6,621 nucleotides of DNA from a virus (IMGVR_UViG_3300007747_000100); one strand, 5' to 3'. Positions 1,730 through 6,621 are shown, counted from the first letter of the stretch. Notes: generated by a model not told the origin, from the sequence alone. Numbers and translations: made by a program.

Positions 1730-2358
1730 GTGGCAGCCTCCTTCAGATAGCAGGTTACGCTACCACCGGAAACGCCAATTTCGCTGGTGGTAGCCCAGAC
1801 AGGGTTGGCGTAACCGGCTCTGAAGGATACCGGCGCTTCCGAAGAAGCCCCCGCCTGAGCCACCATTGATTGACAAAGGCGCTGGATTATACACCAACGC
1901 CCAAAAAATGGGTGAGTCAGACCTACGACATAAAAAAAGACGCTCGGCGCGTCATATGTCGCCTTCAGAATTTTCAGGACGCCAATCCCGGCACCCGTTT
2001 TATGAGGTGCCTTATAACCATAAACCGTGTTGCCGCATAACGGCAAGCTCTTTTTTATGGACTCCGAAAACTCACTATTGGAAGTAACGTCACGCGCGTG
2101 GACGAAGGTTTTTGTGGAGTCACTACACGAGCAGAGAAAGCCATCTACGACCAGAAATTCTCTGGCATAGCCGCTGACCTTCTCAACGCTAACACCATCG
2201 ACCGTAATTTCTGACATAGTTAAGGCATCCGCTCCTACCACCAGCAAATGATAAACTTTGCTTGTATCTGCTGTATTAATGTCTGACTTTGCTGTCATAT
2301 TGCTGGATTTTGGCGACATACCAGCCAGTGAAAATGTCTTCTTCTGGACGGGTATCAT
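1730..2358 (-). CDS. hypothetical protein, 5' portion of the 344-aa track ORF; 3' end unresolved (possible frameshift/pseudogene or genuine overlap)
   Basis: ATG 2358..2356 overlaps the stop of the 59-aa ORF (ATGA), GGAGG with 7-nt spacer upstream. The frame stays open to 1324, but downstream of about 1730 the evidence favours two separate small genes. The other two minus frames have stops at 1765..1763 and 1757..1755, just upstream of the next gene's RBS. Contains terminator-like hairpins on both strands. Confidence 0.35.
1932..1953 (-). terminator. terminator-like hairpin plus T-run on the minus strand, inside the long ORF
   Basis: On the minus strand: GACGC / GCGTC stem (1939-1953 in plus coordinates) with a 5-nt loop, followed by seven T (plus-strand A-run 1932-1938). 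The same bases encode ...[10 protein letters not shown] in the ORF frame. Confidence 0.3.
2030..2056 (+). terminator. terminator-like hairpin plus T-run on the plus strand, inside the long minus-strand ORF
   Basis: Stem TTGCCG (2030-2035) / CGGCAA (2041-2046), loop CATAA, then GCTC and TTTTTT (2051-2056). Confidence 0.35.
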
Positions 2359-3720: not shown

Positions 3721-3939
3721 TCAGGCCACCTTCCCGCGGCGTTCTGCCAGCCAGTTATTAATTTCCACCGCATCAAACGCAGTCACGTTATCTGTTAGCT
3801 TCACTGGGCGTGGAAGAGTGCCATTTTTAACCCATCTATCAATAGTAGGCAGTGAAACACCTAGCAATTCCGGCATGCGAAAGCGACGGATGTATCCAGT
3901 TGTTGGGATAGCTGATGATGCTGGCTTGTGTGCTGTCAT
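3721..3939 (-). CDS. alpA: AlpA/Vis-family phage transcriptional regulator / excisionase-like HTH protein, 72 aa (start uncertain)
   Basis: Segment RMPELLGVSLPTIDRWVKNGTLPRPVKL matches the characteristic AlpA-family helix-turn-helix pattern (recalled family knowledge, so the symbol is family-level). The ATG at 3939 has only a weak SD and the 5' end carries TGATAGCT-type motifs, so the true start could be further downstream (e.g. Met22). Confidence 0.75.
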   Translation of the reverse strand: MTAHKPASSAIPTTGYIRRFRMPELLGVSLPTIDRWVKNGTLPRPVKLTDNVTAFDAVEINNWLAERRGKVA

Positions 3940-3956
3940 ATCTCTAGTAACCTCTC

Positions 3957-3969
3957 TGATAGCTCATGA
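3957..3969 (+). repeat. 13-mer TGATAGCTCATGA, copy 1 (alpA leader / 5' end)
   Basis: Exact 13-bp match to 6435-6447; contains the recurrent oriented 8-mer TGATAGCT. Confidence 0.5.
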
Positions 3970-4020
3970 AGTTACTTAAAGTTTAGTGGTTGCCCATACA
4001 GTATTTCTATTAAGACTAGA

Positions 4021-4052
4021 ATCTATTGAAAGAAATTATAAATCTATTGAAA
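4021..4052. promoter_or_regulatory. operator-like direct repeats ATCTATTGAAA (x2, 21 bp apart) flanking a minus-strand TATAAT; candidate promoter/operator of the alpA operon
   Basis: ATCTATTGAAA at 4021-4031 and 4042-4052. Between them the minus strand reads TATAAT (plus coordinates 4035-4040). No convincing -35 found; the A/T-rich upstream could act as an UP element. About 95 nt upstream of the alpA ATG. Confidence 0.3.
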
Positions 4053-4230
4053 AAATACCGATCCACTGAAAGATTGCAAATACAGGTGGGATAATTATTT
4101 TCTTTATTTTCAATTAGTTACCAGTTTAAAAAATCATTGTTTTATCAAAGAGTTATATCTTTCATCGTCATTCATCATGTTTTTACATTTCTTTTTATCT
4201 TTTATTATTCAATTGGTTGAGTCGGTTTAT

Positions 4231-4270
4231 AATGGCTCATGATGGCTTAAAATGGCTAATGATAGCTGGC
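4231..4270 (+). repeat. four tandem 10-bp repeats (aATGGCTcat / gATGGCTtaa / aATGGCTaat / gATAGCTggc), helically phased
   Basis: Direct reading: core (A/G)AT(G/A)GCT begins at 4231, 4241, 4251 and 4261, exactly 10 bp apart, in the AT-rich region between the 216-aa gene and alpA. Confidence 0.6.
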
Positions 4271-4410
4271 GTATCTTTTAGAGATGGGGTGATTACAGAT
4301 GAACTAAGCCGAACAGATATAGCAATGGCTAGGCATAGAATTATCTATGCTGGTGGAGATGGGTAAACAGGTAATGCCCCGCCATTGCTTTGGAGGGGCG
4401 TGAAAAGTGA

Positions 4411-5061
4411 TTAGTCGAGATCGTGGACAGCTAATAAAGCCCGTGAGATTTTTTCTAGGAATGTGGCTTTTGCTATTCCTTTATGGGATATCCCTTCATC
4501 CTTGATTAAGGTTTCTATGTCACGGTATATAGCTGTGCGATTAGGTTTCCCATTTTGGATGTAGGAAGATGAGCCTGATTTTTTTATCAGCAGATGTACT
4601 ATCAACCCCATCATTTTCATTGTCCCGTTTTCCTCATCCTGCTTTCTATGCTGCCCACGTCCGCTGCGGTTGGTTTCTTTGATGTAGTTTACTAACTGGA
4701 GTCCTCCAAGGTTTCGGGCTTTTTCTTCCCAGCCCTTGGTGCCACGCAAATCATCAATCGCTTCTGATATTTTCTGAACAATTATTTCTGGTGTATTTGT
4801 GTCAATAAATGGGTAAGAAGCTAAGAAAATATCAAGGGCATGGCAAGGCTCGTCTTTACTAGTTTTTTCACCTCTGTACACCTTGATAGCTCTGGCAAGA
4901 TGAGTTCTGACAAAATCGACATATTCGAAATTTTCCTCAGGCACATCGCTAATGCGCATAGATGGGTTTAGGCCAGCCAAGGCCACAGCCATTTCATGAG
5001 GGGTAATCGATACAGATGAACAAAGCCGTTCGATTGGCGATTTTCTCAAGATGTTGTTCAC
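4411..5061 (-). CDS. hypothetical protein, 216 aa, unknown function; integrase-coupled accessory gene
   Basis: GTG start 5061..5059 overlaps the integrase stop (GTGA) and is preceded by GGAGG with a 5-nt spacer. Long open frame, and visibly more AT-rich than the integrase gene by eye. No conserved motif recognised (no Walker A, no clear transmembrane segment). Confidence 0.7.
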   Translation of the reverse strand: MNNILRKSPIERLCSSVSITPHEMAVALAGLNPSMRISDVPEENFEYVDFVRTHLARAIKVYRGEKTSKDEPCHALDIFLASYPFIDTNTPEIIVQKISEAIDDLRGTKGWEEKARNLGGLQLVNYIKETNRSGRGQHRKQDEENGTMKMMGLIVHLLIKKSGSSSYIQNGKPNRTAIYRDIETLIKDEGISHKGIAKATFLEKISRALLAVHDLD

Positions 5062-6326
5062 ATTTGCCTCCGGGCTTTATCGAATGGCGTTACGTTGTAG
5101 TCTTTCCCGCTTTCCAGTGCCACCAGCAGATCAGCCCACTGTGCCAGCGCAGCTTTACGCTCATCAAAATACTGATGGCGGTTATAAATCCCCTCCACAC
5201 CCTTAATGCGATGATTGAGGCATCGTTCCGCTACGACAGGATCAACACCCAATGCTGCTAAATGAGTACGTGCGGTACGCCGGAAGTCGTGAATCGTGAA
5301 ATTAGGCACATCCGGCATTTCGGCGCGAACCTTAGCCAGTGCTACGGGTAAAGTGCTTTCCTGAATATGTGGGATCATTCTGTTTTGCATCTTCCTGGCT
5401 GGAAGCACCCATGCGCTATTACATGAAAAGGTGTGTAGCTCTCTCAACCATTCAACGGCTGGGGAAGGTAGAGGTATATCAATAGGGTCTCCGTTTTTGC
5501 TGCGTTCTTCCGGCAAATGCCATACCGCACCATCTAAATCAAACTCTTCCCATCGTGCGGCGCATAACTCCATCTTACGAACGCATAGTGCCAGCAATAG
5601 CTTAAATGTCAGTTCGTTCTGGCGGCTGAATCCTTTTGCGGTGCGCATAGCCTCGAATAGCCTGATAAGCTCATCGCGAGTTAGCCAACGGTCGCGGGAA
5701 ACCTCTTTACCACCAGCATCAGATACTTCAAACGCTGAACAAGGGTTTATCTCCAGAGCGTGGCGTTTTATCCCATAGTCAAAGATACGGCGTGCCCAGC
5801 GTAATACATCTGTTGCTATCGTTGGTGCTCCTCGGTCAACGATACCTTTCAACATGTCGTCAATGTGGCGTGGCTTAACGTCCTCTACCTTCATATGCCC
5901 AATGCAGGGGTTAATATCCTTATCAATTCTCCGGCGAAGGATATCGGGATGTTTCCATCTCGGAAGTATCTGGCGCTCGAAGTATTCGGAGGCCAGATCT
6001 GAAACACGCATGGCGTTTTTCTCAGCCTCCATTTTTGCCAGTGCTTCAGCTTTTCGTTCCTGTTTCTCTGCTGCTACGTCATAGCCAAGAGCAACTCTGG
6101 CTGACAGCTCTTTTGCTGTTTCTCTGGCTTTTGATAGTGACAGTTCGGAGTAAGAGCCTATAACCATAGCCCGCTGCTTTCCTGCGAGCTTATAGCGGAA
6201 TCGCCAGAACGGGACTGTGTAGTTTTTGGGGTAGCAAATATAAAGGCCGTTGCCGTCTGCCTTGCCATCAAATCTGTCTCCCGCCTTTATCCATGCGCGG
6301 ATCTGCATATCTGTGAGTTTTGGCAT
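5058..6326 (-). CDS. int: tyrosine site-specific integrase, P4-like family (about 422 aa)
   Basis: N-terminus MPKLTDMQIRAWIKAG...DGNGLYI matches the arm-binding N-terminal domain typical of P4-type integrases. The C-terminal region has the tyrosine-recombinase hallmarks (HDFRRTARTH; GIYNRHQY with the presumed catalytic Tyr). Start trimmed from the track's 6410 to the ATG at 6326..6324. Confidence 0.9.
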   Translation of the reverse strand: MPKLTDMQIRAWIKAGDRFDGKADGNGLYICYPKNYTVPFWRFRYKLAGKQRAMVIGSYSELSLSKARETAKELSARVALGYDVAAEKQERKAEALAKMEAEKNAMRVSDLASEYFERQILPRWKHPDILRRRIDKDINPCIGHMKVEDVKPRHIDDMLKGIVDRGAPTIATDVLRWARRIFDYGIKRHALEINPCSAFEVSDAGGKEVSRDRWLTRDELIRLFEAMRTAKGFSRQNELTFKLLLALCVRKMELCAARWEEFDLDGAVWHLPEERSKNGDPIDIPLPSPAVEWLRELHTFSCNSAWVLPARKMQNRMIPHIQESTLPVALAKVRAEMPDVPNFTIHDFRRTARTHLAALGVDPVVAERCLNHRIKGVEGIYNRHQYFDERKAALAQWADLLVALESGKDYNVTPFDKARRQM

Positions 6327-6355
6327 TGCGAATACCTGAATATCGAATATGGGGG

Positions 6356-6405
6356 TGTACATAAAGCAATGTACATGAAAGTCATTATGTACACCTCTAT
6401 GTACA
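6356..6405. promoter_or_regulatory. four TGTACA hexamers immediately upstream of the integrase start (candidate regulator or arm-type binding sites)
   Basis: TGTACA at 6356-6361, 6370-6375, 6388-6393 and 6400-6405, mostly in the context ATGTACA(C/T), within 80 bp upstream of the int ATG at 6326. Confidence 0.45.
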
Positions 6406-6434
6406 CGCATATTGTGCGCTTTGTTGCGTTGTTA

Positions 6435-6447
6435 TGATAGCTCATGA
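6435..6447 (+). repeat. 13-mer TGATAGCTCATGA, copy 2 (between the int upstream region and the junction terminator); candidate att or arm-type site
   Basis: Exact 13-bp direct repeat of 3957-3969. A further TGATAGCT lies at 6508-6515, overlapping the stop codon of the flanking gene. Confidence 0.45.
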
Positions 6448-6451
6448 TAAC

Positions 6452-6488
6452 AAAAAAGCCCGACATTTCGCGGGCTTTGTGGTTTTTT
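6452..6488. terminator. bidirectional rho-independent terminator
   Basis: GC-rich stem GCCCG (6458-6462) / CGGGC (6471-6475), extendable to AAAGCCCG/CGGGCTTT, with an 8-nt loop. It is flanked by an A-run (6452-6457) and a T-run (6483-6488), so it reads as hairpin plus U-tract on either strand. Confidence 0.6.
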
Positions 6489-6514
6489 GCTGCTTGGTGA
6501 TTTTTACTGATAGC

Positions 6515-6621
6515 TTATTCGATATTCTGAATCTGCTCGCGCATCTGCTCAATCAACACTTTCAGCTCGATGGCAGAATTCGTCACTTCGGCATTGATAG
6601 ATTTCGAAGCAAGAGTGTTCG
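6515..6621 (-). CDS. 3' end of an unidentified, presumably chromosomal gene (partial)
   Basis: Minus-strand frame open from the window edge to TAA at 6517..6515 (C-terminus ...INAEVTNSAIELKVLIEQMREQIQNIE), followed downstream by the hairpin terminator. Product not recognised. Confidence 0.5.
   Translation of the reverse strand, partial: NTLASKSINAEVTNSAIELKVLIEQMREQIQNIE

What the first reader, a model, noticed from the sequence alone, without database searches (positions are those of the whole stretch)
3957..6515. Oriented 8-mer TGATAGCT recurs five times, always on the plus strand, at structurally meaningful positions
Exact TGATAGCT occurs at 3957, 4260, 4884, 6435 and 6508, with close variants at 3907 (GATAGCT) and 4240 (TGATGGCT). 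I did not find the reverse complement AGCTATCA. A given 8-mer is expected well under once per strand in 6.6 kb, so five same-orientation copies are unlikely by chance. The copies sit in the alpA leader, in the phased array, inside the cargo gene, between int and the junction terminator, and overlapping the stop codon of the flanking gene. Two copies extend to an identical 13-mer (3957-3969 and 6435-6447). This fits binding sites for an element-encoded protein (integrase arm-type or AlpA/Vis-type sites) or att-related repeats.
Basis: seen in the sequence. Interest (0 to 1): 0.6.

Follow-up and report, generated by a model that had tools for sequence, protein, structure and literature searches.

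The report
Predicted AlpA binding words near island end
The repeated word TGATAGCT is real: four of its five copies belong to regularly spaced arrays, at the integrase end of a phage-satellite island and in front of its regulator gene alpA, that most likely bind the island's AlpA excision/activator protein, a known kind of control site not yet described for this element.

Summary
TGATAGCT occurs five times on the + strand and never on the - strand. It is about 70 times rarer in the host chromosome.

The window is the int end of a roughly 18-kb PICI-like satellite inserted at the 3' end of yicC. The copies at 6435 and 6508 are the strongest words of two blocks of 10-bp-phased "TG words". Block A is at 6415-6451 and block B at 6488-6514. 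They lie 63 bp apart, with B abutting the crossover core. This geometry holds in 57 non-redundant islands from gamma- and beta-proteobacteria, each lineage with its own word. It matches the mapped TorI (excisionase) sites of prophage KplE1. The integrase arm-type sites are a different word, TATGTACAC.

The copy at 3957 lies in the alpA leader and is conserved in at least 10 genera; other lineages carry their own att word there. The copy at 4260 ends a four-unit phased array. The copy at 4884 is probably a coding coincidence.

Islands at another target (der), whose integrase is only 64% identical but whose AlpA is of the same type, keep TGATAGC.

Best reading, at confidence about 0.6: these are AlpA binding sites that serve excision and autoregulation. 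That makes this a new member of a known kind.

The parts
3721..3939 (-). alpA: a 72-aa AlpA-family winged-helix regulator, the proposed reader of the word
   Evidence: Pfam Phage_AlpA at 6e-6 and PHROG 'excisionase and transcriptional regulator'. The closest solved structure is 8c3t, an 'AlpA family phage regulatory protein'.
3942..3982 (-). alpA 5' leader hairpin. The stem is AGTAAC 3946-3951 paired with GTTACT 3971-3976. The Shine-Dalgarno complement CCTCTC is at 3951-3956. The loop carries the word.
   Evidence: Folds at -14.6 kcal/mol. An equivalent hairpin with different, complementary stem sequences occurs in more than 20 leaders from other lineages.
3957..3973 (+). Leader words TGATAGC (3957) and TGAAGTT (3967), 10 bp apart
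   Evidence: TGATAG(C/T/G) lies 17-20 nt upstream of the alpA start in at least 10 genera. Other lineages carry their own att word at this spot. Permutation test P=0.007.
4230..4269 (+). Four-unit, exactly 10-bp-phased array: TAATGGC, TGATGGC, AAATGGC, TGATAGC
   Evidence: Best match in the window outside att to a profile built from other genera's att blocks: score 15.5, reached in 12 of 500 shuffles, with the minus-strand best at 0.9. A drifted but phased equivalent exists in L018.
4884..4891 (+). Copy inside the cargo gene; probably a coincidence
   Evidence: It encodes Ala-Ile of ARAIK. Homologous cargo genes keep the peptide but not the DNA word. There is no phased partner.
5058..6326 (-). 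int: a P4/IntS-type tyrosine integrase
   Evidence: Pfam Arm-DNA-bind_3, Phage_int_M and Phage_integrase. It is 27% identical to KplE1 IntS, E=3e-19.
6355..6409 (.). Four GTACA-type words (GTGTACATAA, ATGTACATGA, TTATGTACACC, CTATGTACACG): two inverted plus two direct. These are the probable integrase arm-type sites.
   Evidence: The same doubled word lies at the far end of the island (L001 782-805). The doubled words sit 130 bp and 82 bp from the core, as for the doubled motif of HE-PICIs. The layout matches the IntS P' sites of KplE1.
6415..6451 (+). Block A: TGCGCTT, TGCGTTG, TGATAGC, TGATAAC, with TG at 6415, 6425, 6435 and 6445
   Evidence: TG occupancy of 0.62-0.86 at d=70/71, 80/81, 90/91 and 100/101 in 57 non-redundant arms, against a background of 0.11.
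6455..6478 (.). Bidirectional intrinsic terminator between the blocks. It replaces the displaced yicC terminator.
   Evidence: Terminator scan. The native K-12 terminator stays at the dinD side of the island.
6488..6514 (+). Block B: TGCTGCT, TGATTTT, TGATAGC, with TG at 6488, 6498 and 6508, abutting the core
   Evidence: TG occupancy of 0.89, 0.82 and 0.79 at d=27, 17 and 7. The terminal TGATAGC is kept in 7 of 7 diverged E. coli variants at the yicC site (L003-L009) despite different neighbouring sequence; in L008 it sits one phase step (10 bp) further from the yicC stop.
6515..6535 (.). att core: the last 7 codons of yicC, TTATTCGATATTCTGAATCTG. The crossover falls in the first ~6 bp.
   Evidence: The same 21 bp (2 differences between attL and attR) is repeated at the attL and attR of the LR-06 island, and its polymorphisms place the exchange at TTAYTC. 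Empty site in K-12.

Best explanation
The window is the integrase end (attR) of a PICI-like phage satellite inserted at the 3' end of yicC. TGATAGC(T) is the strongest version of a 7-bp "TG word" that is repeated head-to-tail once per helical turn.

I propose that the island's AlpA protein binds these words cooperatively. AlpA is a small winged-helix protein of the excisionase/activator class.
- It would bind two blocks on the int-proximal arm (6415-6451 and 6488-6514), which are 63 bp, or six turns, apart, with the second touching the crossover core.
- There it would bend the arm so that integrase held at the TATGTACAC arm sites can reach the core and excise the island.
- It would also bind the same word in its own leader (3957) and in the array at 4230-4269, feeding back on alpA expression.

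Shown here: the sites, their geometry, their conservation and their co-variation. Inferred: that AlpA is the binding protein, and what binding does.

The copy at 4884 is taken as chance.
For: 1. Geometry. In 57 non-redundant arms from Enterobacterales, Aeromonas, Tolumonas and Chromobacterium/Vogesella/Dechloromonas, TG sits at 7, 17 and 27 nt and at 70-71, 80-81, 90-91 and 100-101 nt from the yicC stop in 62-89% of arms. The background is 11%.

2. Blocks A and B share a lineage-specific word: TGATAGC, TGAGAC/T, TGCGACA/TGCAAT, GGAGT, TGACACG or TGATAT.

3. The experimentally mapped TorI sites of KplE1 attL have the same plan: two 10-bp-phased triplets 63 bp apart, the first 5 nt from the core, followed by four integrase P' sites and then intS. 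IntS and this Int share their domain architecture.

4. The words are on one arm only. The best 3-unit score is 25.0 on the right arm and 2.0 on the left.

5. The alpA leader carries the att word of its own lineage. TGATAGC appears there in at least 10 genera, TGACACG in L070, TGATACG in L074 and TGGGGTG in L087. Thirteen of 45 representatives match, against a permuted mean of 6.9 (P=0.007), with 4 antisense matches.

6. A profile built from other genera's att blocks finds 4240/4230 and 3957 as the best hits in the window outside att.

7. Natural experiment. Islands at the der site (L108, L119) have integrases only 63-65% identical (arm domain 69%). Their AlpA is identical or near-identical to that of yicC islands, and they keep TGATAGC in both blocks. 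yicC integrases at 67-77% identity that are paired with other AlpAs have other words.

8. Literature.
- Recombination directionality factors bind direct repeats one helical turn apart, and some double as regulators (PMC7498355).
Against: - There is no binding data.
- The AlpA recognition-helix type does not map one-to-one onto the word. TGATAGC goes with TIDRW, TVDRW, TIDRK, TIWRK and TIWRY helices, while a helix close to TIWRY goes with TGCGACA.
- Several lineages with well-formed blocks show no AlpA gene within 4 kb of int.
- TorI and this AlpA are not detectably similar in sequence, so the KplE1 parallel is architectural only.
- The der-site arms are nearly identical to class-1 yicC arms. 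The natural experiment could therefore reflect recent module transfer rather than long-term selection.
- The array at 4230-4269 is only moderately significant (12 of 500 shuffles), and the leader is not significant as a block (77 of 500).
- The leader word lies in the loop of a conserved RNA hairpin and could act as RNA.
- In EcCICFT073, AlpA did not change int promoter activity. That argues against one expected side effect, though not against binding.
Confidence: 0.6

Rival explanations
1. The TG words are integrase sites: extra arm-type or accessory sites read by the Int N-terminal domain, or extended core-type sites. The GTACA words would then be read by something else.
For: - Block B touches the crossover, and its last word is in a fixed register 7 nt from the stop codon.
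- Lambda P'1-P'3 are also phased direct repeats (general knowledge).
- The TGATAGC class largely coincides with integrases at least 83% identical to the window's.
- PMC10111431 leaves open which protein binds the att motifs of PICIs.
Against: - The words are on one arm only, whereas the GTACA doubled word is on both arms at 130 and 82 bp.
- der-site integrases whose arm domain is 69% identical keep TGATAGC, while yicC integrases with 69-77% arm-domain identity have other words.
- L029 (Int 90%) and L013 (Int 86%) have changed words.
- An integrase site in the alpA leader would have no obvious purpose.
- In KplE1 the equivalent positions were footprinted by TorI, not IntS.
Confidence: 0.12
2. 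The phased TG steps are a structural feature. They would act as bendable DNA or as sites for a host nucleoid protein or another island protein, not AlpA. The exact 8-mer identity among copies would then come from gene conversion between neighbouring blocks.
For: - Only T1, G2 and partly A3 are strongly conserved in the profile.
- Blocks A and B share up to 17-31 bp in some lineages (L008, L011), which looks like conversion or duplication.
- Other lineages carry unrelated 10-bp tandem arrays upstream of alpA.
- The AlpA helix-to-word mapping is imperfect.
Against: - Positions 3-7 are lineage-specific yet shared between att blocks and the alpA leader 2.5 kb away. Local conversion cannot explain this, and a host factor would not need it.
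- The cargo and PM1773-family genes vary among islands that use the same word.
Confidence: 0.13
3. The leader copy at 3957 acts at the RNA level, as the loop AGCUAUCA of a hairpin that hides the ribosome-binding site of alpA. Its identity with the att word would be incidental. This can coexist with the main explanation for the att copies.
For: A hairpin with co-varying stems, the Shine-Dalgarno sequence at the base of its 3' arm and the word in its loop is found in more than 20 leaders.
Against: Different lineages place their own att word in this loop. That is expected for a shared DNA-binding protein, not for an independent RNA motif.
Confidence: 0.1
4. Chance, or a coding artefact: the five copies have no common function.
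For: - About 6% of shuffles give some 8-mer with at least 5 same-strand copies, and CGGGCTTT also occurs 5 times.
- The 4884 copy and the 3906 variant are explained by Ala-Ile codons.
- All genes are on one strand, so strand bias inside genes is expected.
Against: - Four copies are non-coding and sit at conserved, phased positions in dozens of genera.
- Host background is 0.07 per 6.6 kb per strand.
Confidence: 0.04

Closest known systems
TorI (RDF) sites I1-I5 in attL of the E. coli K-12 prophage KplE1/CPS-53 (Panis et al. 2010, PMC2951348)
   Same: - The integrase is of the P4/IntS type, next to the junction.
- There are two blocks of short direct repeats at 10-bp phase, 63 bp apart, the first within a few bp of the core.
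- Four integrase arm-type sites (two direct, two inverted) follow, just before the int start.
   Different: - The word differs: CAGTTCG there, TGATAGC here.
- The target differs: argW tRNA there, the yicC 3' end here.
- TorI is not detectably similar in sequence to this AlpA, and torI lies at the far end of the prophage.
- KplE1 has no terminator between its blocks.
- Binding was footprinted there and is only predicted here.
Dual-function excisionase/regulators that bind phased direct repeats: phage 186 Apl, P2 Cox, P4 Vis, lambda Xis (PMC7498355, PMC11963761)
   Same: Small (winged-)helix-turn-helix proteins that bind direct repeats one helical turn apart. Apl, Cox and Vis bind both at att and at a promoter region. 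P4 Vis is the AlpA homologue of satellite P4.
   Different: Those sites form single clusters with different words. Here there are two in-phase clusters plus a leader site embedded in a hairpin loop. Whether regulation is positive or negative is unknown.
Gram-negative PICIs and their AlpA master regulator (EcCICFT073, EcCIMP1; PMC6092414, PMC11773190)
   Same: The gene order is the same: int, accessory gene, alpA, AntA/Bro, C4/isrK RNAs with icd/ash, then primase, all in one direction. In those elements AlpA is needed for excision and activates its own promoter.
   Different: No AlpA binding site was found described in the papers searched and read here. This island sits at yicC. Helper dependence was not tested.
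Doubled att motif tgTGTATTGCantgTGTATTGCa of helper-embedded PICIs (PMC10111431)
   Same: A tandem pair of about 11-bp words, co-oriented, lies about 81 bp from the attP centre on one side and about 132 bp on the other. Here TTATGTACACC-TCTATGTACACG lies at 82 and 130 bp.
   Different: This corresponds to the GTACA words, not to TGATAGCT. The sequence differs. That paper reported the motif only for the HE-PICI clade.

Membership tests
RDF (Xis/TorI/Vis/AlpA-type) binding-site arrays | Short direct repeats in one orientation, about one helical turn apart | tested here: met
   TG at 6415/25/35/45 and 6488/98/6508, and at 4230/40/50/60, all on the + strand. Phased peaks in 57 arms.
RDF (Xis/TorI/Vis/AlpA-type) binding-site arrays | Located on one att arm only, between the core and the integrase arm-type sites | tested here: met
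   Right arm scores 25.0 and left arm 2.0 in SF-166. No phased TG pattern in the three left arms available. The order arm sites, block A, block B, core is seen.
RDF (Xis/TorI/Vis/AlpA-type) binding-site arrays | The element encodes a small winged-helix RDF-class protein | tested here: met
   alpA 3721-3939: Pfam Phage_AlpA, and HTH_17 below its cut-off. PHROG 'excisionase and transcriptional regulator'.
RDF (Xis/TorI/Vis/AlpA-type) binding-site arrays | The site sequence follows the RDF rather than the integrase | tested here: inconclusive
   For: der-site islands and leader/att co-variation (P=0.007). Against: the helix type does not map one-to-one onto the word.
RDF (Xis/TorI/Vis/AlpA-type) binding-site arrays | Physical binding by the RDF, and a requirement for excision | not testable with these tools
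   Needs EMSA or footprinting and excision assays.
Integrase arm-type sites | Present on both arms of attP | tested here: not met
   TGATAGC is absent from the left end of the island. The GTACA word meets this feature.
Integrase arm-type sites | Co-variation with the integrase arm-binding domain | tested here: not met
   L108 Int residues 1-90 are 69% identical to L105 yet the word is unchanged. L011 and L012, also at 69%, have different words.
att core / flanking direct repeat | The same sequence at both junctions and in the empty site | tested here: not met
   The identity block is TTAYTCRATRTTCTGAATCTG, the yicC 3' end. TGATAGCT only abuts it and shares its last T.
Gram-negative PICI (phage-inducible chromosomal island) | int and alpA zone, Bro/AntA plus immunity-RNA zone, primase zone, unidirectional genes, own att site | tested here: met
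   Annotation of SF-166, Pfam and Rfam C4 and isrK, compared with the scheme in PMC10111431.
Gram-negative PICI (phage-inducible chromosomal island) | Induction and packaging by a helper phage | not testable with these tools
Generic over-represented host word (Chi/KOPS-like) | Comparable frequency across the host chromosome | tested here: not met
   Three copies in 2 x 138 kb of the SF-166/K-12/E2348 chromosome. Eight copies in 2 x 293 kb of flanks from other genera.

The most novel reading that the evidence does not exclude
P4/IntS-type integrases may share a fixed excision scaffold from KplE1 (argW) to satellites at yicC and der in gamma- and beta-proteobacteria. It would consist of two in-phase triplets or quartets of RDF words exactly six helical turns apart and abutting the core. 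In the satellites, the same AlpA word is additionally built into the loop of a ribosome-binding-site hairpin of alpA. One protein-DNA code would then couple excision, transcription and translation of the master regulator. This would give the first operator model for Gram-negative PICI AlpA.
Probability: 0.25. Interest if true: 0.65.

Novelty: new member of a known kind. Interest (0 to 1): 0.5.

Why it matters
AlpA is the master switch of Gram-negative phage satellites (PICIs). I found no description of its DNA target in the papers I could search. A 2023 survey left open which protein binds the att motifs of these elements.

A concrete, conserved site model makes several questions directly testable with a few gel shifts and point mutants:
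- how helper-phage induction is converted into excision;
- how AlpA feeds back on itself;
- whether satellites with the same AlpA type cross-talk.

The model consists of the word, a 10-bp phase, two blocks 63 bp apart and a leader site. It also gives annotators a way to delimit the int-proximal end of such islands to the base pair. The yicC and der 3' ends emerge as widely used satellite targets.

Tried and rejected
1. Count statistics alone. After correction for choosing the best 8-mer, the count is only borderline (about 6%), so I relied on comparative data instead.

2. TGATAGCT as the att direct repeat. Rejected: the identity block is the yicC 3' end. The apparent 2-bp overlap in SF-166 comes from a 12-bp deletion in attL.

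3. IHF, DnaA-box and lambda-operator resemblance. I compared these from memory with the sequence and found no convincing match. The lineage-specific words argue against a host factor.

4. A sigma-70 promoter overlapping the 6435 copy for int. No convincing hexamers (and inspection).

5. Mapping AlpA recognition-helix types onto words. No clean one-to-one rule emerged.

6. Looking for the att word near alpA in the distant E. coli lineages L010-L014. No exact hits. The signal appeared only with the wider genus sample.

7. Other AlpA homologues as natural experiments (P0053, P0065, P0106). All sit at yicC and are uninformative. Only P0099 gave a second target site.

8. Locating the model PICI EcCICFT073 in CFT073 by guessed coordinates. 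This failed twice.

9. L029 (Int 90%, different words). It has no alpA within 4 kb and looks like a different or degraded element.
Full report
**Observation**

TGATAGCT occurs at 3957, 4260, 4884, 6435 and 6508 on the + strand, and its reverse complement never occurs. The one-mismatch variants at 3906 and 4240 and the shared 13-mer at 3957 and 6435 are also present.

For this word, shuffles give 0.28 copies on average. After allowing for the free choice of word, about 6% of dinucleotide shuffles contain some 8-mer with five same-strand copies. A second word, CGGGCTTT, also reaches five. The count is therefore suggestive, not decisive.

In 138 kb of the same host's chromosome the word occurs three times on both strands together, or 0.07 per 6.6 kb per strand. 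In 293 kb of flanking DNA from other genera it occurs eight times. It is absent from the other 24 kb of locus L001.

**What the window is**

The window is nearly identical to E. coli chromosomes such as SF-166. There it forms the right-hand 6.6 kb of a roughly 18-kb island between dinD and yicC.

All genes in the window run on the minus strand:
- a P4/IntS-type integrase (5058-6326; Arm-DNA-bind_3, Phage_int_M, Phage_integrase);
- an accessory gene (4411-5061);
- alpA (3721-3939);
- AntA, DUF4222 and an Ash/Icd-like gene, the last containing C4 antisense RNA and isrK.

A DUF5906 primase follows further on. This is the layout described for Gram-negative phage-inducible chromosomal islands.

**The junction**

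Comparison with the empty K-12 site shows that the island begins directly after the yicC stop codon. The native yicC terminator is left on the dinD side, and the island supplies a new bidirectional terminator at 6455-6478.

In strain LR-06 both junctions carry the 21-bp yicC 3' end, TTAYTCRATRTTCTGAATCTG. The polymorphisms place strand exchange in its first six bases. SF-166 and E2348/69 have lost 12 bp of the displaced copy. Such damage of the displaced target-gene fragment has been described for PICIs, at tRNA targets.

The core is thus 6515-6535, and the 6508 copy ends on its first base.

**Two kinds of word in the arm**

Between int and the core there are two different repeated words.

The first is TATGTACAC. 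It occurs four times at 6355-6409 (two inverted, two direct) and twice more at the far end of the island. These doubled words lie 130 bp and 82 bp from the core. That matches the 132/81-bp doubled motif reported for helper-embedded PICIs. It is also arranged like the IntS P' sites of KplE1. These are the likely integrase arm-type sites.

The second is the TG word. TG starts at 6415, 6425, 6435 and 6445 (block A) and at 6488, 6498 and 6508 (block B). The spacing is always exactly 10 bp, and the two blocks are 63 bp apart.

**Comparative evidence**

Seven diverged E. coli variants at yicC keep TGATAGC in block B even though the neighbouring bases differ; six have it at the very terminus and one (L008) one phase step (10 bp) in. 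They also keep ATGATAGC(C/T)nATGATAAC just before the terminator.

More distant E. coli islands at the same site (Int 67-86% identical) keep the plan but use other words in both blocks. These are GTGAGAT/C, ATGCGACAG with TGCAAT, and TGATAT.

A scan of one genome per species returned 80 loci, 75 of them with yicC next to int. They range from Enterobacterales to Aeromonas, Tolumonas, Chromobacterium, Vogesella and Dechloromonas.

In 57 non-redundant arms, TG occupies positions 7, 17 and 27 before the stop codon in 79-89% of arms. It occupies 70/71, 80/81, 90/91 and 100/101 in 62-86%, against an 11% background. The distance from the terminator A-run to the stop codon is 63-64 bp in most arms. 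This excludes chance and neutral duplication for the 6435 and 6508 copies.

**Who reads the word?**

Four lines of evidence point to AlpA rather than the integrase.

(i) The experimentally mapped sites of the excisionase TorI in KplE1 attL have the same plan (PMC2951348). They form two 10-bp-phased triplets: I1, a degenerate middle unit and I2, then I3, I4 and I5. The triplets are 63 bp apart, and the first starts 5 nt from the core. Four IntS arm sites and intS follow. IntS is a homologue of the window's integrase.

(ii) The TG blocks are on one arm only. The 3-unit profile score is 25.0 on the right arm and 2.0 on the left.

(iii) The word recurs where AlpA is expected to act on itself. [quoted passage not shown]
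- TGATAG(C/T/G) lies 17-20 nt upstream of the alpA start in at least ten genera.
- Lineages with other att words carry those words there instead: TGACACG, TGATACG, TGGGGTG and TGAGAT.
- In a permutation test, 13 of 45 representatives share an exact TG 7-mer between att blocks and leader, against 6.9 expected (P=0.007) and four in antisense.
- A profile built only from other genera's att blocks picks 4240/4230 and 3957 as the best sites in the window outside att. Nothing comparable appears on the minus strand.

(iv) A natural experiment. Two islands at a different target, the der 3' end, have integrases only 63-65% identical throughout (69% in the arm-binding domain). One has an AlpA identical to that of a yicC island, and the other an AlpA of the same type. 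Both keep TGATAGC at the same places in both blocks. yicC integrases that are equally or less diverged, but paired with other AlpAs, have other words.

**Caveats**

- There is no binding evidence.
- The AlpA recognition-helix type does not predict the word cleanly.
- Some lineages show no alpA within 4 kb.
- TorI and AlpA are not similar in sequence.
- The der-site arms are so like yicC arms that recent module exchange is possible.
- As an att-like block, the 4230-4269 array is only moderately significant (12 of 500 shuffles) and the leader is not (77 of 500).
- The leader word sits in the loop of a hairpin that covers the ribosome-binding site. The hairpin's stem co-varies across lineages, so an RNA-level role cannot be excluded.

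**The fifth copy**

The 4884 copy encodes Ala-Ile within ARAIK. Homologous cargo genes keep the peptide but not the DNA word, and there is no phased partner. I treat it as coincidence. The variant at 3906 is likewise explained by the conserved Ala-Ile-Pro codons of AlpA.

**Mechanism proposed (inferred)**

After helper-phage induction of alpA, AlpA would polymerise head-to-tail on blocks A and B, which face the same side of the helix. This would bend the int-proximal arm so that integrase bound at the GTACA sites bridges to the core and forms the excisive complex. Binding at the leader, and perhaps at the upstream array, would feed back on alpA.

**Comparison with what is known**

This is the architecture known for KplE1 TorI. 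More loosely, it resembles Apl, Cox, Vis and Xis, which bind phased direct repeats at att and in some cases also at promoters.

What is new is the site model for the AlpA of yicC- and der-targeting satellites, its wide conservation, and the leader-loop placement. I found no published AlpA site for Gram-negative PICIs in the library.

**Verdict**

This is a new member of a known kind, of moderate interest.

Noticed in passing
window 1783-1870 (-) and 1933-2010 (-): Rfam finds C4 antisense RNA (79.9 bits) and isrK (67.8 bits) inside the long Ash/Icd-like ORF 1324-2358. This is a P1/P4-type immunity RNA module in the island's Bro/AntA zone.
   Followed up: no
window about 748, about 2088 and 3686/3687: Relative to SF-166 and other near-identical genomes, the window lacks three stretches of about 23, 30 and 83 nt. 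The 83-nt gap truncates the PM1773-family gene that overlaps the alpA stop; that gene is 432 nt in SF-166.
   Followed up: partly
window 4021-4071: There are three direct repeats: ATCTATTGAAA at 4021 and 4042, and ATCCACTGAAA at 4061, spaced 21 and 19 bp. They flank a perfect minus-strand TATAAT (complement of 4035-4040) upstream of alpA. The same word is conserved upstream of alpA in many lineages, and appears as GGAATTCCAT in others. It is a candidate operator of the helper-inducible alpA promoter.
   Followed up: partly
window 3942-3982 (-): The alpA leader forms a hairpin whose 3' arm follows the Shine-Dalgarno sequence. More than 20 leaders from other lineages form the same hairpin with different, compensating stem sequences. 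This suggests translational control of alpA.
   Followed up: partly
L031, L044, L030, L012/L014, between the cargo gene and alpA or int: Other lineages carry 10-bp tandem arrays of unrelated words at the position of the window's 4230-4269 array. Examples are CAATGAAGCG x3, TTGCCTTTGG x9, TTGGGAAC-type units, and GGGACAAAC x3 with inverted copies.
   Followed up: no
L001 709-720; L015; L016 19560-19580: The attL of SF-166 and E2348/69 has lost 12 bp of the displaced yicC fragment (GAGTT|GAATCTG), whereas LR-06 keeps all 21 bp. This resembles the 'damage' of target-gene fragments reported for PICIs.
   Followed up: partly
L017-L096; L108, L119: This integrase family lies next to the yicC 3' end in 75 of 80 species-level loci across gamma- and beta-proteobacteria. 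A relative that is 64% identical targets the der (engA) 3' end with the same arm architecture.
   Followed up: partly
window 2871, 3077, 4716, 5072, 6472 (+): CGGGCTTT also occurs five times on the + strand, and seven times counting both strands. Some copies lie in terminator-like stems.
   Followed up: no
window 6411-6430 and homologous arms: The stretch AATCATGCGCTTTGTTGCG between the arm-type sites and block A is conserved across most lineages, more than its surroundings. It contributes the two outer TG units of block A.
   Followed up: no
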